From a virus (lineage: Duplodnaviria > Heunggongvirae > Uroviricota > Caudoviricetes): DNA of 4,038 bases. The stretch lies in IMG/VR virus record IMGVR_UViG_3300029227_000077; one strand, given 5' to 3'. Below are positions 1 through 4,038 of this stretch, piece after piece. Numbering within the stretch: the first letter of the stretch is position 1; each line of letters opens with the position of its first letter. The notes beneath the pieces are model-generated. The model was not told the DNA's origin. It did no database searches and saw only the letters and a list, made by a program, of their open reading frames with translations. The position numbers were made by a program, and so were the translations under genes.

Positions 1-2883
1 CGCAAACAGCCGCTTCAGGAACACATCGTTCATGAACAACTGATTCCCCTGCGCCACAAATAACGGCGTGGTGTTGCCGTCCTCCGGGTTAATCATCGCA
101 ATACGGTCAGCCAGCAGCAGTATGTTGCTCAGGGGCTGGCCATCAGTATCCTCAATCCCCGCTCCAATACCGGCAACATAGGGTATGCCATTTTTTGTTT
201 TCTGTACCTTCAGCATGTAAAGTGCAGCAAGGTCATCATTTGTGTCCTTCTGCACGCGCTGTATCTGCTGTATGGTGGCGCTCTGGTCCTCCAGCGTTTT
301 ACTGACCGTCTGTGTGATTTCATTGCGGGTTTCTGTGATGGTGGTCTTCATCTCCGCCATCTCGTCCTTCAGCTGACTGTTGTCAATCTCTGCCCACAGC
401 GCCTCTGCCAGATGCGTTTTTCCTATCTTTTCCCGGAAAAACTCCAGATAGCCCGCAGCATCATTGCTCGCCCGTCCACTGGCTTCCACAAAAGCAGATT
501 TACCCACCAGGTTGACGCTGCGCACATAAAACCAGAAATCCTTTCCGGGCTTAATGTGCGGACCGGAGACACTCCACTGACTGCCGGTCCCCAGATAACG
601 GGCAGAGGTTTCCACCTGTGCGGCGTCTGCAATTTTTGCCTCCGAAAACCAGAACTCAAACTGCACCGTCGGGTCATAAATGGTCAGTTTCGGGACTGCC
701 GTTATCTGAAAATACCCCGGCGTCAGTTCAACACCGACAGGCGCTGCCGGTGCGTTAATCCGGAACGTGGTGGTGGCGGGTTCGCCCTGCTGGCCATAGC
801 TGTTAATCGCCCTGACCGTCAGGGTGTATTCCCCGGGAGGCAGGCCACTGAAACGGTGCTCCGTATCGGCAGTGATGGCGGTGGTCAGCAGGCGGCTGTT
901 CTCACCGCTTCCACTGGTCAGGCGCAGACTGAAGCGCACGCCCTTCACCACCCGCGGCGTGTCCCATTTCGCCAGCGCCAGATACTGGCCGTCAGCTGCG
1001 CTCACCTCCACCGTCAGGTGCTGCACTGCCGGTGGGATAACGCTGTTCAGGGTGCCTGACTGCGGCTCAAAGCGGGCCCCGTTATCCACGATGGCTTCTT
1101 TTTCCGGTACGTGCTGCACTGCCGTGATGGCAAAGGTGCCGTCCGTGTTTTCCCGGATGGAGACACAGCGGAACAGGCGACGGCGCAGTGACGGCAGGGA
1201 GAGTCCCCACACCCCGTATGTCTCCACACCATCAGGCAGGGTACTGACCTGTATCCGGTCCGGCGCGGGGTGTGCGGTGATGTCCACACTCACCGGCTTA
1301 CCGCTGCCGTTAATCAGGTTCACCGTGGCGGCACCTGTCCCCGGAAGTGTCACTTCACGGTCCAGCGTCAGGGTGCGGGTGGCAGCATCAATGGACAGGA
1401 CACGTCCGCCGGTCAGGGTCCCGGCATAGTCATTATCACAGATTTCAATAATGTCACCGGGTGTGTGCCGCAGCCCCTGTGACCCGAGTGTGAAATCCAC
1501 CGTCTGCGTTTCCAGCAGTTCGGTCTTTATCACCCACAGCCCGGCACGGTGGGCCTGACCGCGGCTGGTACAGCCGAACGCGTCCATCTTCAGCAGGTTG
1601 CGTCCGTAGCGCAGTATGGCTTCCGGGTCTTCCACCAGTTCCGTGGAGGTCTGCCAGCCGTTCTGCGGGTCGGTGTAATTCACCTCCACCGCCGTGTGCC
1701 GGTCCTTCAGGGCACTGAAGCTGTAGCGGAACCCCACGCCGTTATCATCCACCACCACATCGCTGTTCGTGTACGGCCACACCACATCCGACGTGCGGTC
1801 CTGAACGAACGTCAGCGTCTGGCCGTTCCATACCGGCATACAGCGCATCGCCGAGCAGAAATCACTGAGAACGTCCCACGCCTTACGCTGTTGTGCCAGG
1901 TACGCATTAAAGGTCATCCGCGGCTCTGTGCCCCCGAAACCATCCGGGACCGTCTGGTCGCAGTACTGCCCGATGGCATACAGCGCCCACTTGTCCACAT
2001 CCGCCGCCCCCAGGCGTTTTCCCATCCCGTAGCGCGGGTGAGTCAGCATGTCCCACAGGCACCAGGCCGGGTTGTTGCTGTATGCCGGTTTCAGACTGCC
2101 GTCCCAGATACCACTGTACGTGCGTTTTTCCGGGTCATAGTTTGACGGCACCTGGATGATGCGACCGCGGATATGGTAGTTCACCGTCATCTGCTGGCCG
2201 CCGAACTGCTCCGCATCCACCTGCAGCCCCACAATGGCCGTGTTCGGGTAGCACTGTTTCACATCGATGATTTCGGTGTATGACGACCAGAGCGTCTTAT
2301 TCTGCAGCTGGTCCGTGGTGCTGTCCGCCGTCTCCCTGACCATCCGGATGTTAAAGGGCCGGGGCGGCAGATTATCCAGAATCACCGACGCCAGGAACTG
2401 CGAGGTGGTCTTGCCGTTAATGGTGACATCCTTTTCTGTCACCCAGTTACCGTTACGCTGTAACTGAATCAGCAGACGGACAGAGGACGGATTACGGTCA
2501 CCCTTTGACGTGGTCTCCACCAGTGACTGCACCCCGAAGGTCACCCGCAGGCGGTCAATGTTCGCGGACGTAATGGTGCGCGTCACCGGCTTTGCCTTCG
2601 TCACTTCCACACCCAGTACAGTTTCAGCTCCGGAGGACTCAAAGCCTTCCGGTGGTGTCTGCTCCTGCTCCCCGGCACGCCAGACCGCTGTCACACCGTG
2701 TATCACGGGATTACCGTCCGTGTCCGTCAGCGGGGTTTTGTTCACCAGGATACTCTGCAGTCCCTTCACCGGACCTTCCACCGGTCCCTCACCAATGGCA
2801 TCAATCACGCTCATCATCTGCGTGGATTTGAGATTGTCTTTCGCCTCGCGCGGTGTGTGCGCCTTACCGCCACCTTTACCCAC
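1..2883 (-). CDS. J: Tail tip / host specificity protein J (central tail fibre), N-terminal 961 codons; C-terminal receptor-binding part lies beyond the left edge of the window
   Basis: Continuous minus-strand reading frame from 2883 to position 1 with no in-frame stop (all 961 triplets checked by eye). It is missing from the ORF track only because no stop codon falls inside the window. The N-terminus reads (V/M)[38 protein letters not shown]..., matching lambda gp[23 protein letters not shown]... as I recall it. At the window edge the translation reads ...[65 protein letters not shown], matching the lambda gpJ region ...[18 protein letters not shown]. Start is GTG at 2883..2881, 5 nt downstream of SD GGAGAGGGGG; the nearest upstream in-frame stop is TGA at 2991..2989 with no in-frame ATG in between. 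The plus-strand ORFs listed in this interval are antisense artefacts. Confidence 0.92.
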
Positions 2884-2888
2884 TCGAT

Positions 2889-2898
2889 CCCCCTCTCC
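2889..2898 (-). promoter_or_regulatory. Shine-Dalgarno sequence for J (GGAGAGGGGG, 5-nt spacer to GTG start)
   Basis: Minus-strand sequence caGGAGAGGGGGatcgaGTG read directly from the reverse complement of 2881..2900. Confidence 0.55.
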
Positions 2899-2923
2899 TG
2901 TCTGATGTCTGAATCTGTTTATG

Positions 2924-2957
2924 CCCAAAAAACAACAGGCACCCCGGAGGATGCCTG
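2924..2957 (-). terminator. Rho-independent terminator-like hairpin plus U-tract on the minus strand, immediately upstream of the J ribosome-binding site
   Basis: Minus-strand RNA 5'-CAGGCAUCC-UCCG-GGGUGCCUG-3' (9-bp stem including one G-U pair, 4-nt loop; plus coordinates 2936..2957) followed directly by UUGUUUUUUGGG (2924..2935). On the plus strand the same hairpin is preceded, not followed, by the A/T run, so it is directional for the minus strand. Confidence 0.55.
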
Positions 2958-2995
2958 TATCATGACTGAATAAAAATTCTGAATATCTTCACATT

Positions 2996-3023
2996 TTCAC
3001 AAACTGACTGTGGCGCGTATAAT
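2996..3023 (+). promoter_or_regulatory. Candidate sigma70-type promoter: -35 TTCACA (2996..3001), 16-bp spacer, -10 TATAAT (3018..3023); AT-rich upstream region 2969..2994
   Basis: Perfect -10 hexamer TATAAT and a 5/6 match to the -35 consensus TTGACA at near-optimal spacing, with an A/T-rich UP-like stretch upstream. Predicted transcription start is about 3030. It points away from J and toward I, antisense to the tail operon. Confidence 0.45.
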
Positions 3024-3029
3024 TTCGCT

Positions 3030-3128
3030 GCGTTAGTGTTTTTTCTGCCCGAGTAACAAAAACAACTCCTTAACATTAATCTTCATTTGTCTGTCCCCGC
3101 AGCTCCGCGATCACTGCGGGATTTTTTT
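3030..3128 (+). ncRNA. Candidate small non-coding RNA (~100 nt) defined by its own promoter and intrinsic terminator, antisense to the I-J intercistronic region of the tail operon
   Basis: Interval between the predicted start (~3030) and the end of the terminator U-tract (3128). The plus strand has no ATG here and only a 6-codon GTG frame with no SD. The sequence is AU-rich with one predicted internal stem (3037..3043 pairing with 3058..3064) before the terminator hairpin. Boundaries are predicted, not measured. Confidence 0.35.
3096..3128 (+). terminator. Rho-independent terminator on the plus strand (stem CCCGCAG/CTGCGGG, 11-nt loop, then A-TTTTTTT)
   Basis: 3096..3102 CCCGCAG pairs with 3114..3120 CTGCGGG (7 bp, 6 of them G-C), followed by A and seven T at 3122..3128. 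It lies 5 nt from the stop codon of I, which is on the opposite strand. On the minus strand the hairpin is not followed by a U-tract. Confidence 0.6.
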
Positions 3129-3133
3129 ATGTT

Positions 3134-3814
3134 TTATCCCTGTCGACCAATAACCACCACCTTTCCGTCTCCGCCTTCATCACGGGTGCTGATGTCCTGA
3201 GAGATACGTCGTGAACCAACCAGCATTTCACCGTAGGGCACCGGCATCGGGTTGCCCTGGGCAATCATGTTGTCCAGTGAGGAAAAATACGTGTTCTGTC
3301 TGCCGTTATCCGTTGCGCGGTAATCCGGTGTTTTTGCCTTCGGGGCCAGCATCTGTGCCACACCGCCCAGTATCATGCTGGCTCCAAGTGAAAACAGCAT
3401 CGTGGTGGCAGAAAAACCACCGGCTGCCAGGGCTGAACCCCATAACGCCATTGATGCTCCGGCCGTGAAGAAAGACCCCACAATGGCAGCTGCCCCCAGC
3501 ACAATCTGTAGTCCGCCCTTTCCGGCTCCGGCCAGTCGCGGCACAATATGGATAACCGTTCCCTCACCCAGTGGTTCGTGAAGGCGGGCATACACCGCCT
3601 CCGGTGCCGTATCCTCACCGGCAATGCGTATCTGGTACCAGCCTTCGTTCATCTGACGGCGGAATCCCGGCACCTGCAGCGACAGGGCGCGGATGGCTTC
3701 CGCCGCCGTGTTCACATACAGGCTGAAGCGGCGGCCAAATCGTTGTAAATCCCCGTGAAGGCAGATGCGTGCCAGTGGCGGTGACGCCAGACAGAATGCG
3801 TTCGTCGTTGCCAT
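3134..3814 (-). CDS. I: Tail (tip) assembly protein I
   Basis: ORF-track ORF of 226 aa. The translation MATTNAFCLASPPLARICLHGDLQRFGRRF...GWYQIRIAGED...VIHIVPRLAGAGKGG...QIVLGAAAIVGSFFTAGA...LFSLGASMILGGVAQMLAPKAKTP...DNGRQNTYFSSLDNMIAQGN...YGEMLVGSRRISQDISTRDEGGDGKVVVIGR is co-linear with lambda gpI as recalled (MA..H..PLASPGMARICLYGDLQRFGRR...GWYQVRIAGRD...IHIVPRVAGAKSGG...QIVLGAAAIAGSFFTAGA...LFSLGASMVLGGVAQMLAPKARTP...DNGKQNTYFSSLDNMVAQGN...YGEMRVGSRVVSQEIS..DEGDGGQVVVIGR) and of similar length. ATG at 3814..3812; stop TAA at 3136..3134. Confidence 0.92.
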   Translation of the reverse strand: MATTNAFCLASPPLARICLHGDLQRFGRRFSLYVNTAAEAIRALSLQVPGFRRQMNEGWYQIRIAGEDTAPEAVYARLHEPLGEGTVIHIVPRLAGAGKGGLQIVLGAAAIVGSFFTAGASMALWGSALAAGGFSATTMLFSLGASMILGGVAQMLAPKAKTPDYRATDNGRQNTYFSSLDNMIAQGNPMPVPYGEMLVGSRRISQDISTRDEGGDGKVVVIGRQG

Positions 3815-4038
3815 TTTTCGGAATACCTCTCCCGTTTACTCAGTTGTTCAGGCAGATGGTGAAGCAGCTCACCGTTGCCGCAGTAAATGGCGGCATGGTT
3901 CGGTACCGAAGCACCAAAGCAGCACAGCAGAATATCGCCCGCCTGTGCAGAGGACAGGGGCACCCGGTAAAAGCCGGTGACCGCCATATTGTCCAGGTAA
4001 AGGTTCTGACCGTTGCACCACCAGTCATCCTCACGGTG
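3712..4038 (-). CDS. K: Tail (tip) assembly protein K, C-terminal part (NlpC/P60-like region); N-terminus beyond the right edge of the window
   Basis: The minus-strand frame is open from the window edge (4038) to stop TGA at 3714..3712. It reads HREDDWWCNGQNLYLDNMAVTGFYRVPLSSAQAGDILLCCFGASVPNHAAIYCGNGELLHHLPEQLSKRERYSEKWQRRTHSVWRHRHWHASAFTGIYNDLAAASACM, which matches the C-terminus of lambda gpK as recalled (...VPNHAAIYCGDGELLHHIPEQLSKRERYTDKWQRRTHSLWRHRAWRASAFTGIYNDL...). The ORF-track entry 3712..3987 is the same frame truncated to an internal Met. The last 103 nt overlap the start of I in a different frame. Confidence 0.88.
   Translation of the reverse strand, partial: HREDDWWCNGQNLYLDNMAVTGFYRVPLSSAQAGDILLCCFGASVPNHAAIYCGNGELLHHLPEQLSKRERYSEKWQRRTHSVWRHRHWHASAFTGIYNDLAAASACM

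What the first reader, a model, noticed from the sequence alone, without database searches (positions are those of the whole stretch)
2884..3133. Unusually long, AT-rich I-J spacer that looks like an inserted moron-like island in a conserved tail operon
K, I and J are arranged as in lambda, but the non-coding gap between the I stop (3134) and the J start (2883) is 250 bp. From memory the lambda I-J gap is only about 60 bp. The spacer is visibly more AT-rich than the flanking GC-rich tail genes and contains its own promoter and two terminators (one per strand). Hendrix-type morons in lambdoid late operons are defined by exactly this: extra DNA between conserved genes, bracketed by a promoter and a terminator, with atypical composition. 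Here the island carries no protein gene, which is unusual.
Basis: partly seen in the sequence, partly recalled or inferred. Interest (0 to 1): 0.7.

Follow-up and report, generated by a model that had tools for sequence, protein, structure and literature searches.

The report
PasB small-RNA gene between tail genes
The long AT-rich gap between the phage tail genes I and J is real, but it is not empty: it holds the already published prophage small RNA gene pasB, read in the opposite direction to the tail genes, so the finding is an ordinary copy of a known element.

Summary
The I stop codon (3134-3136) and the J start (GTG, 2883) are 250 bp apart, against 60 bp in lambda. The gap is 42.8% G+C against 58.6% in the flanks. 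It carries a near-consensus sigma-70 promoter on the + strand and one intrinsic terminator on each strand.

The + strand unit is the pasB gene. PasB is an Hfq-dependent small RNA found by RIL-seq and Northern blot in EPEC E2348/69 (Pearl Mizrahi 2021); its distribution was surveyed by Zhu, Shabalina and Storz (2026 preprint). The published Northern probe matches window 3101-3123 exactly. Window 3046-3128 is 81/83 identical to the E2348/69 RNA and sits in the same place, antisense between I and J.

The same cassette is in 1799 of 5426 complete E. coli genomes and 147 phage records. Its promoter and terminator stem are nearly invariant; the RNA body varies. The O157 Sakai copies are very probably EcOnc22/23/24 (Tree 2014).

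The minus-strand hairpin belongs to the late operon; lambda has an equivalent hairpin.

The "moron-like island" reading is right in form (an insertion relative to lambda with its own promoter, terminator and odd composition). But the cargo is a known sRNA, and the island is common. Novelty: already known. Interest: low.

The parts
1..2883 (-). 5' part of gene J (tail tip attachment / host specificity protein). GTG start at 2883; runs off the left end of the window.
   Evidence: Translation is open for 961 codons. Pfam matches FNIII-A_GpJ, Ig_J and Phage-tail_3.
3134..3814 (-). Gene I (tail assembly protein I), 226 aa; stop codon at 3134-3136.
   Evidence: ORF list. Pfam Lambda_tail_I, E = 1.3e-15.
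3712..4038 (-). 3' part of gene K (C40/NlpC-P60 peptidase). Overlaps the start of I by 103 nt, as in lambda.
   Evidence: ORF list. Pfam NLPC_P60. Lambda K 14276-14875 and I 14773-15444.
2884..3133 (.). The I-J intergenic spacer: 250 bp, 42.8% G+C.
2970..3133 (+). The pasB cassette: upstream AT-rich block, promoter, sRNA and terminator. This is the unit that recurs next to different J-side sequences.
   Evidence: Many BLAST hits cover only query 87-250, i.e. window 2970-3133. The alignments show the left flank changing at about 2966-2970 while the cassette stays.
2970..2995 (+). Nearly invariant AT-rich block (GAATAAAAATTCTGAATATCTTCACA...) upstream of the -35 hexamer. Possibly an UP element or a regulator-binding site (inferred).
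   Evidence: Conservation line across 51 distinct cassette sequences.
2996..3023 (+). Predicted sigma-70 promoter of pasB: -35 TTCACA (2996-3001), 16-nt spacer, -10 TATAAT (3018-3023). Predicted transcription start is near G3030.
   Evidence: Promoter scan, 11 of 12 matches. The -35 is invariant and an ATAAT-type core of the -10 is kept in nearly all alleles. The start site is inferred, not mapped.
3046..3128 (+). PasB sRNA, 83 nt, by homology to the annotated E2348/69 RNA (NC_011601.1 1466343..1466261). 81/83 identical: nt 27 C>A (window 3072) and nt 33 G>A (window 3078). The primary transcript may start about 16 nt earlier, near 3030.
   Evidence: Coordinates and probe from Table S6 of PMC8550237. 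Exact probe match at 3101-3123. Alignments.
3055..3066 (+). A-rich tract AACAAAAACAAC, four A-R-N triplets. Candidate contact for the distal face of Hfq (inferred).
   Evidence: Read directly from the sequence. The tract stays A-rich but changes in sequence between allele groups.
3078..3087 (+). Single-stranded block AAUCUUCAUU holding the near-invariant AAUCUUC. Candidate seed.
   Evidence: Predicted unpaired in the fold. Conserved across alleles. UCUUCAUU is complementary to AAUGAAGA (twice in ler) and to AAUGAAG in yrdD-smg, both RIL-seq partner fragments. Zhu et al. place the seed just upstream of the terminator.
3096..3128 (+). Intrinsic terminator of pasB: stem CCCGCAG (3096-3102) / CUGCGGG (3114-3120), then A and U7 (3122-3128). 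It ends 5 nt before the I stop codon.
   Evidence: The stem and the U-tract are conserved in nearly all of the 51 alleles.
2925..2958 (-). Stem-loop on the late-operon sense strand: ACAGGCAUCC-UCCG-GGGUGCCUGU, followed by UGUUUUUU, about 40 nt upstream of the J start. A terminator-like or mRNA-stabilising element of the I-J junction; not part of pasB.
   Evidence: Terminator scan. Fold energy -18.8 kcal/mol, z = -3.0. 97.7% of cells paired across 13 variants, one compensatory C-G to U-A pair, and six G-U cells that pair only on this strand. Lambda's 60-bp spacer has an analogous hairpin.
2960..3076 (-). 38-aa ORF, annotated as a hypothetical protein in some phage records. Not a gene.
   Evidence: The start codon or the frame is lost in 46 of 51 distinct alleles.

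Best explanation
The spacer holds pasB, a self-contained small-RNA gene inserted between tail genes I and J of a lambdoid E. coli prophage and pointing against the late operon.

Its own sigma-70 promoter (2996-3023) lets it be transcribed in the lysogen, independently of the Q-dependent late promoter. Transcription runs rightwards for about 83-99 nt and stops at an intrinsic terminator whose U7 tail ends 5 nt before the I stop codon.

The RNA has the layout of an Hfq-dependent base-pairing sRNA: an A-rich ARN tract, an unpaired U-rich region holding the conserved AAUCUUCAUU block, and a terminator hairpin with a poly-U tail.

In EPEC E2348/69 the 81/83-identical RNA is seen on Northern blots, and its stability is reported to be Hfq-dependent. 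On Hfq it is ligated to host and virulence mRNAs (ler, perB, bfpB, bfpI, ftsZ, galE and others). It therefore most likely acts in trans on bacterial mRNAs by base pairing.

The separate hairpin on the operon-sense strand (2935-2958) is a feature of the I-J junction that lambda also has. Q-modified polymerase would read through it, and unmodified polymerase would stop there.

What is shown: sequence identity, position, orientation and conservation here; expression, Hfq dependence and RNA partners in the literature, for the E2348/69 copy. What is inferred: expression of this particular copy, its start site, its seed, and the outcome for any target.
For: - The published PasB Northern probe matches window 3101-3123 exactly.
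- Window 3046-3128 is 81/83 identical to the annotated PasB. The promoter-proximal leader is also identical apart from one inserted C.
- The setting is the same in E2348/69: a 240-bp gap between the tail assembly protein and gpJ, with PasB on the opposite strand, ending 5 nt from the I stop.
- Promoter and terminator are predicted and are the most conserved parts of 51 distinct cassette sequences from 178 loci, while the RNA body varies.
- The fold shows an unpaired seed region plus a terminator hairpin.
- From the literature: a Northern band of the predicted size, Hfq-dependent stability, higher level in the non-activating condition, 37 RIL-seq interactions. PasB is described as embedded in an operon of phage structural genes.
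- Sakai EcOnc22/23/24 lie on the + strand in the I-J spacers of Sp15, Sp14 and Sp11. EcOnc22 gave a ~85 nt Northern band that is destabilised without hfq. After correcting the old-to-new coordinate offset, calibrated on AgvB, the Hfq peaks fall on the pasB-like RNA.
- The cassette is absent from lambda, whose gap is 60 bp.
Against: - No expression data exist for this copy.
- The annotated 5' end (3046) is 16 nt downstream of the start predicted from the promoter (about 3030), so either the RNA is processed or one of the two estimates is off.
- No regulatory outcome has been shown for any PasB target. The discovery paper left functional analysis of these sRNAs to future work, and Zhu et al. give only a predicted seed for PasB.
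- My duplex-energy test against five RIL-seq partners was not significant.
- Rfam 15 has no model that matches, so there is no independent covariance-model confirmation.
- The terminator stem is essentially invariant, so it offers no covariation support.
Confidence: 0.9

Rival explanations
1. The cassette works mainly in cis on the phage. PasB is perfectly complementary to the I-J intercistronic part of the late mRNA, and its promoter fires head-on against late transcription. It could trigger RNase III processing between I and J, change J expression, or interfere with late transcription. Conversely, late mRNA could act as a sponge for PasB during lytic growth.
For: The antisense, convergent arrangement is conserved in every allele and spacer type. 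The cassette always sits between the I stop and a sense-strand hairpin that would become the 5' stem-loop of a processed J mRNA. The promoter region is more conserved than the RNA body.
Against: The complementary stretch ends about 145 nt upstream of the J ribosome-binding site, so direct occlusion is unlikely. PasB is abundant in uninduced lysogens and is ligated on Hfq to many chromosomal and plasmid mRNAs, which points to trans action. Lambda builds tails without the cassette. The two roles are not mutually exclusive.
Confidence: 0.15
2. The spacer is a decaying relic of a former protein-coding moron, for example a sodC-type insertion that lost its gene, with no present function.
For: In nine related IMG/VR loci the same junction holds an antisense sodC. 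It is followed by a pasB-like body and the same terminator, but there is no pasB promoter. A historical link between the two cargos is therefore plausible.
Against: A relic would not keep a near-consensus promoter, an invariant upstream block and an essentially unchanged terminator across 51 distinct sequences and about a third of E. coli genomes. The RNA is expressed and Hfq-bound in EPEC, and very probably in O157.
Confidence: 0.04
3. The spacer encodes a small protein: the 38-aa ORF at 2960..3076 on the - strand, or one of the short ORFs that some phage records annotate there as hypothetical proteins.
For: Hypothetical proteins are annotated in this spacer in phage 1720a-02 and PhiR12_1. 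The ORF is open in the window.
Against: The start codon or the frame is lost in 46 of 51 distinct alleles, through substitutions in the ATG and through 1-, 2-, 4- and 5-nt indels.
Confidence: 0.02

Closest known systems
PasB (pathogenicity-associated sRNA B) of EPEC E2348/69 prophage PP6. Pearl Mizrahi et al. 2021, Sci Adv (PMC8550237); Zhu, Shabalina & Storz 2026 preprint (10.64898/2026.05.13.724894).
   Same: 81/83 nt identical, with an exact match to the Northern probe. Same promoter. Same terminator. Same position between the I and J tail genes. Same antisense orientation.
   Different: Two substitutions (nt 27 C>A, nt 33 G>A) and one extra C in the leader T-run. The J-side flank is of a different type: same hairpin stem, but a different loop and ribosome-binding region. 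This copy has not been tested experimentally.
EcOnc22 / EcOnc23 / EcOnc24 of E. coli O157:H7 Sakai prophages Sp15, Sp14 and Sp11. Tree et al. 2014, Mol Cell (PMC4104026, Table S2).
   Same: They sit in the I-J spacers of lambdoid prophages, on the strand opposite the tail genes. EcOnc22 gives a ~85 nt Northern band that is destabilised without hfq. They share the upstream block, the -35 hexamer, the AAUCUUC block and the terminator stem with the window.
   Different: The RNA body, the region around the -10 hexamer and the terminator loop differ; the cassette is about 75-77% identical. The equation with PasB rests on my coordinate-offset correction and on homology. I found no paper in the library searched that states it.
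AgvB and AsxR anti-sRNAs of Stx and other lambdoid prophages (Tree et al. 2014; Rfam RF02702 and RF02703).
   Same: They are prophage-borne, Hfq-binding short RNAs with their own promoter, placed at a moron insertion site in an orientation convergent with phage transcription. The family has conserved 3' parts and variable 5' parts.
   Different: Different locus (downstream of PR', not I-J). No sequence similarity: Rfam finds no match in the window. They act by sponging core sRNAs, which has not been shown for PasB.
Hendrix-type morons of lambdoid phages (Juhala et al. 2000), and the prophage sodC-F1 / sodC-F2 genes of O157:H7 (PMC2569942).
   Same: Extra DNA between genes that are adjacent in lambda, with its own promoter and terminator and atypical base composition, expressed from the prophage. 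sodC occupies the same I-J junction in the same antisense orientation in related prophages.
   Different: The cargo here is a non-coding RNA of under 100 nt, not a protein gene.

Membership tests
PasB sRNA | Sequence identity to the E2348/69 PasB RNA, including the target of the published Northern probe. | tested here: met
   The probe matches 3101-3123 exactly. 81/83 nt are identical over 3046-3128.
PasB sRNA | Intergenic position inside the phage structural operon, between the tail assembly (I) and gpJ genes, on the opposite strand. | tested here: met
   Window: I at 3134-3814 (-), J from 2883 (-), sRNA on +. E2348/69 has the same arrangement.
PasB sRNA | [quoted passage not shown] | tested here: met
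   Stem 3096-3102 / 3114-3120 followed by U7.
PasB sRNA | Expressed as a ~83 nt RNA whose stability depends on Hfq. | not testable with these tools
   Reported only for the E2348/69 copy. For the Sakai allele EcOnc22, Tree 2014 reports a ~85 nt Northern band destabilised without hfq.
Moron (Juhala/Hendrix definition) | Extra DNA between two genes that are adjacent in related phages. | tested here: met
   250 bp here against 60 bp in lambda. Other cargos sit at the same junction: sodC with an 852-bp gap, and a 339-345-bp form.
Moron (Juhala/Hendrix definition) | Its own promoter and terminator, forming an autonomous transcription unit. | tested here: met
   Predicted promoter and terminator, both conserved across 51 alleles. 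Activity was not measured here.
Moron (Juhala/Hendrix definition) | Base composition unlike that of the neighbouring phage genes. | tested here: met
   39-43% G+C against 58.6%, z = -4.3.
Moron (Juhala/Hendrix definition) | Carries a protein-coding gene of benefit to the host (the usual case). | tested here: not met
   No conserved ORF. The cargo is an sRNA.
Hfq-dependent base-pairing sRNA | Hfq-binding module: a terminator hairpin preceded by a U-rich single strand and followed by at least 6 U. | tested here: met
   UCAUUUGUCUGU is predicted unpaired and is followed by the hairpin and U7. Criteria are those of Ishikawa 2012 and Otaka 2011, as cited.
Hfq-dependent base-pairing sRNA | A defined seed that pairs with targets and changes their expression. 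| tested here: inconclusive
   UCUUCAUU (nt 35-42) is complementary to sites in 2 of 5 RIL-seq partner fragments. Duplex energies are no better than for shuffled targets. No target has been validated in the literature.

The most novel reading that the evidence does not exclude
The I-J junction of lambdoid prophages may be a dedicated slot for antisense cargo, in which a fixed promoter and terminator scaffold carries a fast-diversifying sRNA body.

- At least five allele groups share the upstream block, an ATAAT-type -10 core, AAUCUUC and the terminator stem, yet are only about 75% identical overall. They sit next to I proteins that are >=96% identical. This would unite PasB with EcOnc22-24 as one seed-variable family, a link I did not find stated in the papers I searched or read.
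- In sodC-carrying prophages the same sRNA body and terminator follow sodC without a promoter of their own. The sRNA may there be made from the sodC 3' UTR, or pasB may have arisen from such a UTR.
- Because the RNA is fully complementary to the late I-J mRNA, it could also act in cis on tail-gene expression during induction.
Probability: 0.3. Interest if true: 0.45.

Novelty: already known. Interest (0 to 1): 0.2.

Why it matters
For this window it matters little: it is one more copy of a published prophage sRNA gene.

The useful by-products are modest:
- The spacer should be annotated as pasB, not as "hypothetical protein" or left blank, as it is in the phage and RefSeq records seen here.
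- The PasB family is wider than BLAST with the 83-nt RNA suggests. It very probably includes the O157 sRNAs EcOnc22-24, whose function is still listed as unknown.
- The I-J junction is a recurrent slot for antisense cargo (pasB alleles, sodC), which makes it a convenient place to look for new prophage-borne regulators.

Tried and rejected
1. **Rfam scan of the window at E <= 1.** The only hit was a chance archaeal snoRNA match inside J. PasB has no Rfam model, so this route could not identify the element.

2. **AgvB/AsxR hypothesis.** The CA-rich tract resembles the GcvB-target consensus. Rejected: AgvB and AsxR lie at the PR' site, not at I-J. Their Rfam models do not hit the window. The part of the RIL-seq table I read shows no PasB-GcvB chimera.

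3. **Duplex energy of PasB against five RIL-seq partner fragments, compared with dinucleotide shuffles.** p ranged from 0.03 to 0.97. The duplexes were long and full of loops, so the test was uninformative. Only the exact-complement search gave a hint of a seed.

4. **Scan of one genome per GTDB species for the exact terminator.** The single hit was a 3.4-kb contig labelled Streptomyces flavalbus. This says nothing about host range, because the one E. coli representative genome evidently lacks the cassette.

5. **My first regex-based measurement of I-J gaps.** It missed many loci. I replaced it with tblastn/blastn anchors.

6. **Small-protein reading of the 38-aa ORF.** Rejected.

7. **The consensus terminator scan did not flag lambda's spacer hairpin.** Folding shows the hairpin.

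Full report
**1. The observation**

All genes in the window read on the minus strand.
- The 226-aa ORF at 3134..3814 is tail assembly protein I (Pfam Lambda_tail_I).
- The frame that opens with GTG at 2883 and runs off the left end is the tip attachment protein J.
- The fragment at 3712..4038 is the C40 peptidase K. It overlaps I by 103 nt, exactly as in lambda.

Lambda's I-J gap is 60 bp.

The gap is 42.8% G+C, and 39.0% for 2970..3133, against 58.6% elsewhere in the window. That is 4.3 sd below the other 250-bp windows.

A consensus scan finds three features in the gap:
- a + strand promoter, TTCACA-16 nt-TATAAT at 2996..3023, 11 of 12 matches;
- a + strand terminator at 3104..3120 followed by T7;
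- a - strand terminator at 2958..2935 followed by TGTTTTTT.

**2. What it is**

The promoter and the + strand terminator define a transcript of about 100 nt that points against the tail operon. Rfam has nothing for it.

A literature search led to the Pas sRNAs of EPEC. Table S6 of Pearl Mizrahi et al. 2021 gives PasB as follows:
- 83 nt, NC_011601.1 1466343..1466261, minus strand;
- in prophage PP6, between E2348C_1436 and E2348C_1437, antisense to both;
- Northern probe AATCCCGCAGTGATCGCGGAGCT.

That probe matches window 3101..3123 exactly.

In E2348/69 the two flanking genes are the tail assembly protein and gpJ, 240 bp apart. The window aligns to that spacer throughout. Window 3046..3128 is 81/83 identical to the annotated PasB, with nt 27 C>A and nt 33 G>A. 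The leader back to the -10 hexamer is identical except for one inserted C.

The + strand unit is therefore the pasB gene.

**3. Distribution and anatomy of the cassette**

The 250-bp spacer has homologues in 147 phage records, mostly Stx-converting phages. It is also in 1799 of 5426 complete E. coli genomes, with up to 10 copies per genome. Many hits cover only query 87-250, that is window 2970..3133.

Among 80 IMG/VR loci whose I protein is >=96% identical to the window's, 77 also contain the J start:
- 68 carry the cassette, in gaps of 235-261 or 339-345 bp;
- 9 have an 852-bp gap without it;
- none has a short lambda-like gap.

I collected 178 copies, which collapse to 51 distinct sequences, and aligned them. 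The conserved parts are:
- the AT-rich block upstream of the -35 hexamer, and the -35 itself (nearly invariant);
- an ATAAT-type core of the -10 hexamer, kept in nearly all alleles;
- a short AAUCUUC block;
- the terminator stem CCCGCAG/CUGCGGG and its U-tract.

The RNA body between the leader and the terminator falls into at least five divergent allele groups. Some cassettes are only about 75% identical although their neighbouring I proteins are >=96% identical.

The left boundary of the cassette is at about 2966-2970, where at least three unrelated J-side flanks join. Phage PhiR12_2 has a 99.2% identical spacer next to an I protein only 76% identical, so the cassette moves by recombination.

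The 38-aa ORF at 2960..3076 on the minus strand is open in only 5 of the 51 alleles. It is not a gene.

**4. The O157 alleles**

Tree et al. 2014 list EcOnc22, EcOnc23 and EcOnc24 as homologous orphan Hfq-binding sites in Sakai prophages Sp15, Sp14 and Sp11. All three are on the + strand. EcOnc22 gave a ~85 nt Northern band that is destabilised in the hfq mutant.

In NC_002695.2 all three coordinates fall in I-J spacers of 240 bp, and these spacers carry a pasB-like cassette.

Taken at face value, the peaks sit 22-84 nt from the J start, upstream of the pasB-like promoter. However, the paper's coordinates do not match the current record. Rfam places AgvB at 1941920-1941981 in the current record, whereas the paper gives its peak at 1941783-1941835. 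That is an offset of about +137 to +146.

Applying this offset puts the three peaks on the body of the pasB-like RNA. I conclude that EcOnc22-24 are very probably alleles of the same family. This step is an inference, because the offset was calibrated at 1.94 Mb and not at the loci themselves.

In the library searched, only the Tree paper and one review mention EcOnc22. The review lists its function as unknown and does not link it to PasB.

**5. The minus-strand hairpin**

The stem-loop at 2935..2958 with its U-run lies on the operon-sense strand, about 40 nt upstream of J. It folds at -18.8 kcal/mol, z = -3.0.

Across 13 distinct variants 97.7% of cells are paired. One pair shows a compensatory C-G to U-A change. 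Six cells are G-U, which pair only if the minus strand is the one that folds.

The 339-345-bp spacer type has a different, stronger hairpin in the same place. Lambda's own 60-bp spacer folds into a hairpin followed by U's just before the J ribosome-binding site, although the simple terminator scan did not flag it.

This element therefore belongs to the I-J junction itself. The pasB cassette sits between the I stop and this hairpin.

**6. How it most likely works**

The RNA has:
- an A-rich tract of four ARN triplets (3055-3066);
- a region predicted unpaired that holds AAUCUUCAUU (3078-3087);
- a terminator hairpin and U7.

This is the usual Hfq-binding layout.

For the E2348/69 copy the published data show:
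- a Northern band of the expected size;
- Hfq-dependent stability;
- a higher level under the non-activating growth condition;
- 37 Hfq-mediated RNA-RNA interactions, including ler, perB, bfpB, bfpI, ftsZ, galE, rplX, ygeV and yibT.

The most likely mechanism is trans-acting base pairing on bacterial mRNAs, expressed from the repressed prophage.

No seed was derived for PasB from its RIL-seq targets. Zhu et al. predict one just upstream of the terminator, from conservation. I found that UCUUCAUU (nt 35-42) is complementary to AAUGAAGA twice in the ler fragment and to AAUGAAG in the yrdD-smg fragment. This is a hint, not a proof. Duplex energies were not better than for shuffled targets.

A cis role on the late I-J mRNA is not excluded.

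**7. The same junction with other cargo**

The nine 852-bp gaps hold an antisense Cu/Zn superoxide dismutase gene (Pfam Sod_Cu, E = 4e-32). It appears to correspond to the prophage sodC-F genes described in O157, although I did not compare the sequences.

Downstream of sodC and its own weak hairpin lies a pasB-like body of one of the divergent allele groups, together with the shared terminator. The pasB promoter is missing: homology begins within a few nucleotides of the predicted pasB start site.

This supports the view that the junction is a moron slot. It also suggests an evolutionary link between sodC and pasB.

**8. Verdict**

Its formal reading holds: an insertion relative to lambda with its own promoter, terminator and composition.

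The claim that the island is unusual because it carries nothing does not hold. It carries pasB, a published Hfq-dependent sRNA gene that is common in E. coli prophages. The two terminators belong to two different units.

The finding is already known, and I score it low. The residual interest lies in the wider allele family, the probable identity with EcOnc22-24, the sodC link and a possible cis role.

Noticed in passing
L120 3182-4033 (IMG/VR UViG_2568526473_000004); the same form in 9 of 77 related loci: The I-J gap is 852 bp and holds an antisense Cu/Zn superoxide dismutase gene (sodC). After sodC come a pasB-like RNA body and the pasB-type terminator, but there is no pasB promoter. Homology to pasB alleles starts within a few nt of the predicted pasB start site. 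The sRNA may be made there from the sodC 3' UTR, or pasB may derive from such a UTR.
   Followed up: partly
L188 1492-1731, L189 973-1212, L190 923-1162 (O157 Sakai Sp15, Sp11, Sp14): The Hfq-CRAC sites EcOnc22/24/23 of Tree 2014 map to I-J spacers that carry a pasB-like cassette. The published coordinates are shifted by about 137-146 bp relative to NC_002695.2, judged from AgvB. I found no paper linking EcOnc22-24 to PasB.
   Followed up: partly
L013 5084-5425 and about 28 similar IMG/VR loci: A 339-345-bp form of the I-J spacer: the pasB cassette plus about 100 bp of unrelated sequence on the J side. That extra sequence has its own strong sense-strand hairpin (AAACCCCGGUAUC...GAUACCGGGGUUU, fold z = -6).
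   Followed up: partly
L107 (NZ_JBHTEB010000006.1, 3408-bp contig labelled Streptomyces flavalbus): This was the only hit to the pasB terminator among one genome per GTDB species. The contig carries an E. coli-type I-J spacer with a pasB-like allele. It is almost certainly a contaminating enterobacterial prophage contig in a Streptomyces assembly.
   Followed up: no
window 2881-2883 (-): J starts with GTG in the window. The E2348/69 and L013-type relatives have ATG at the same codon (GTGGGTAAA versus ATGGGCAAA).
   Followed up: no
window 3712-3814 (-): The end of K and the start of I overlap by 103 nt in different frames. The overlap has the same length as in lambda (14773-14875).
   Followed up: no
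PV340551.1 / PV340550.1 (phages PhiR12_2_star and PhiR12_2): The spacer is 99.2% identical to the window, although the neighbouring I protein is only 76% identical (measured on PhiR12_2_star). This is mosaic exchange of the cassette independent of the flanking tail genes.
   Followed up: no
L001 2629-2781 and L002 2606-2704: Public phage records annotate short hypothetical proteins inside this spacer. The frames are not conserved across alleles, so these are probably mis-annotations over the pasB gene.
   Followed up: partly
window 2970-2995 (+): The block GAATAAAAATTCTGAATATC upstream of the -35 hexamer contains a TGAATA...TGAATA direct repeat. It is more conserved than the sRNA itself, which suggests an UP element or a binding site for an unknown regulator. 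PasB is reported to be higher under the non-activating growth condition.
   Followed up: no
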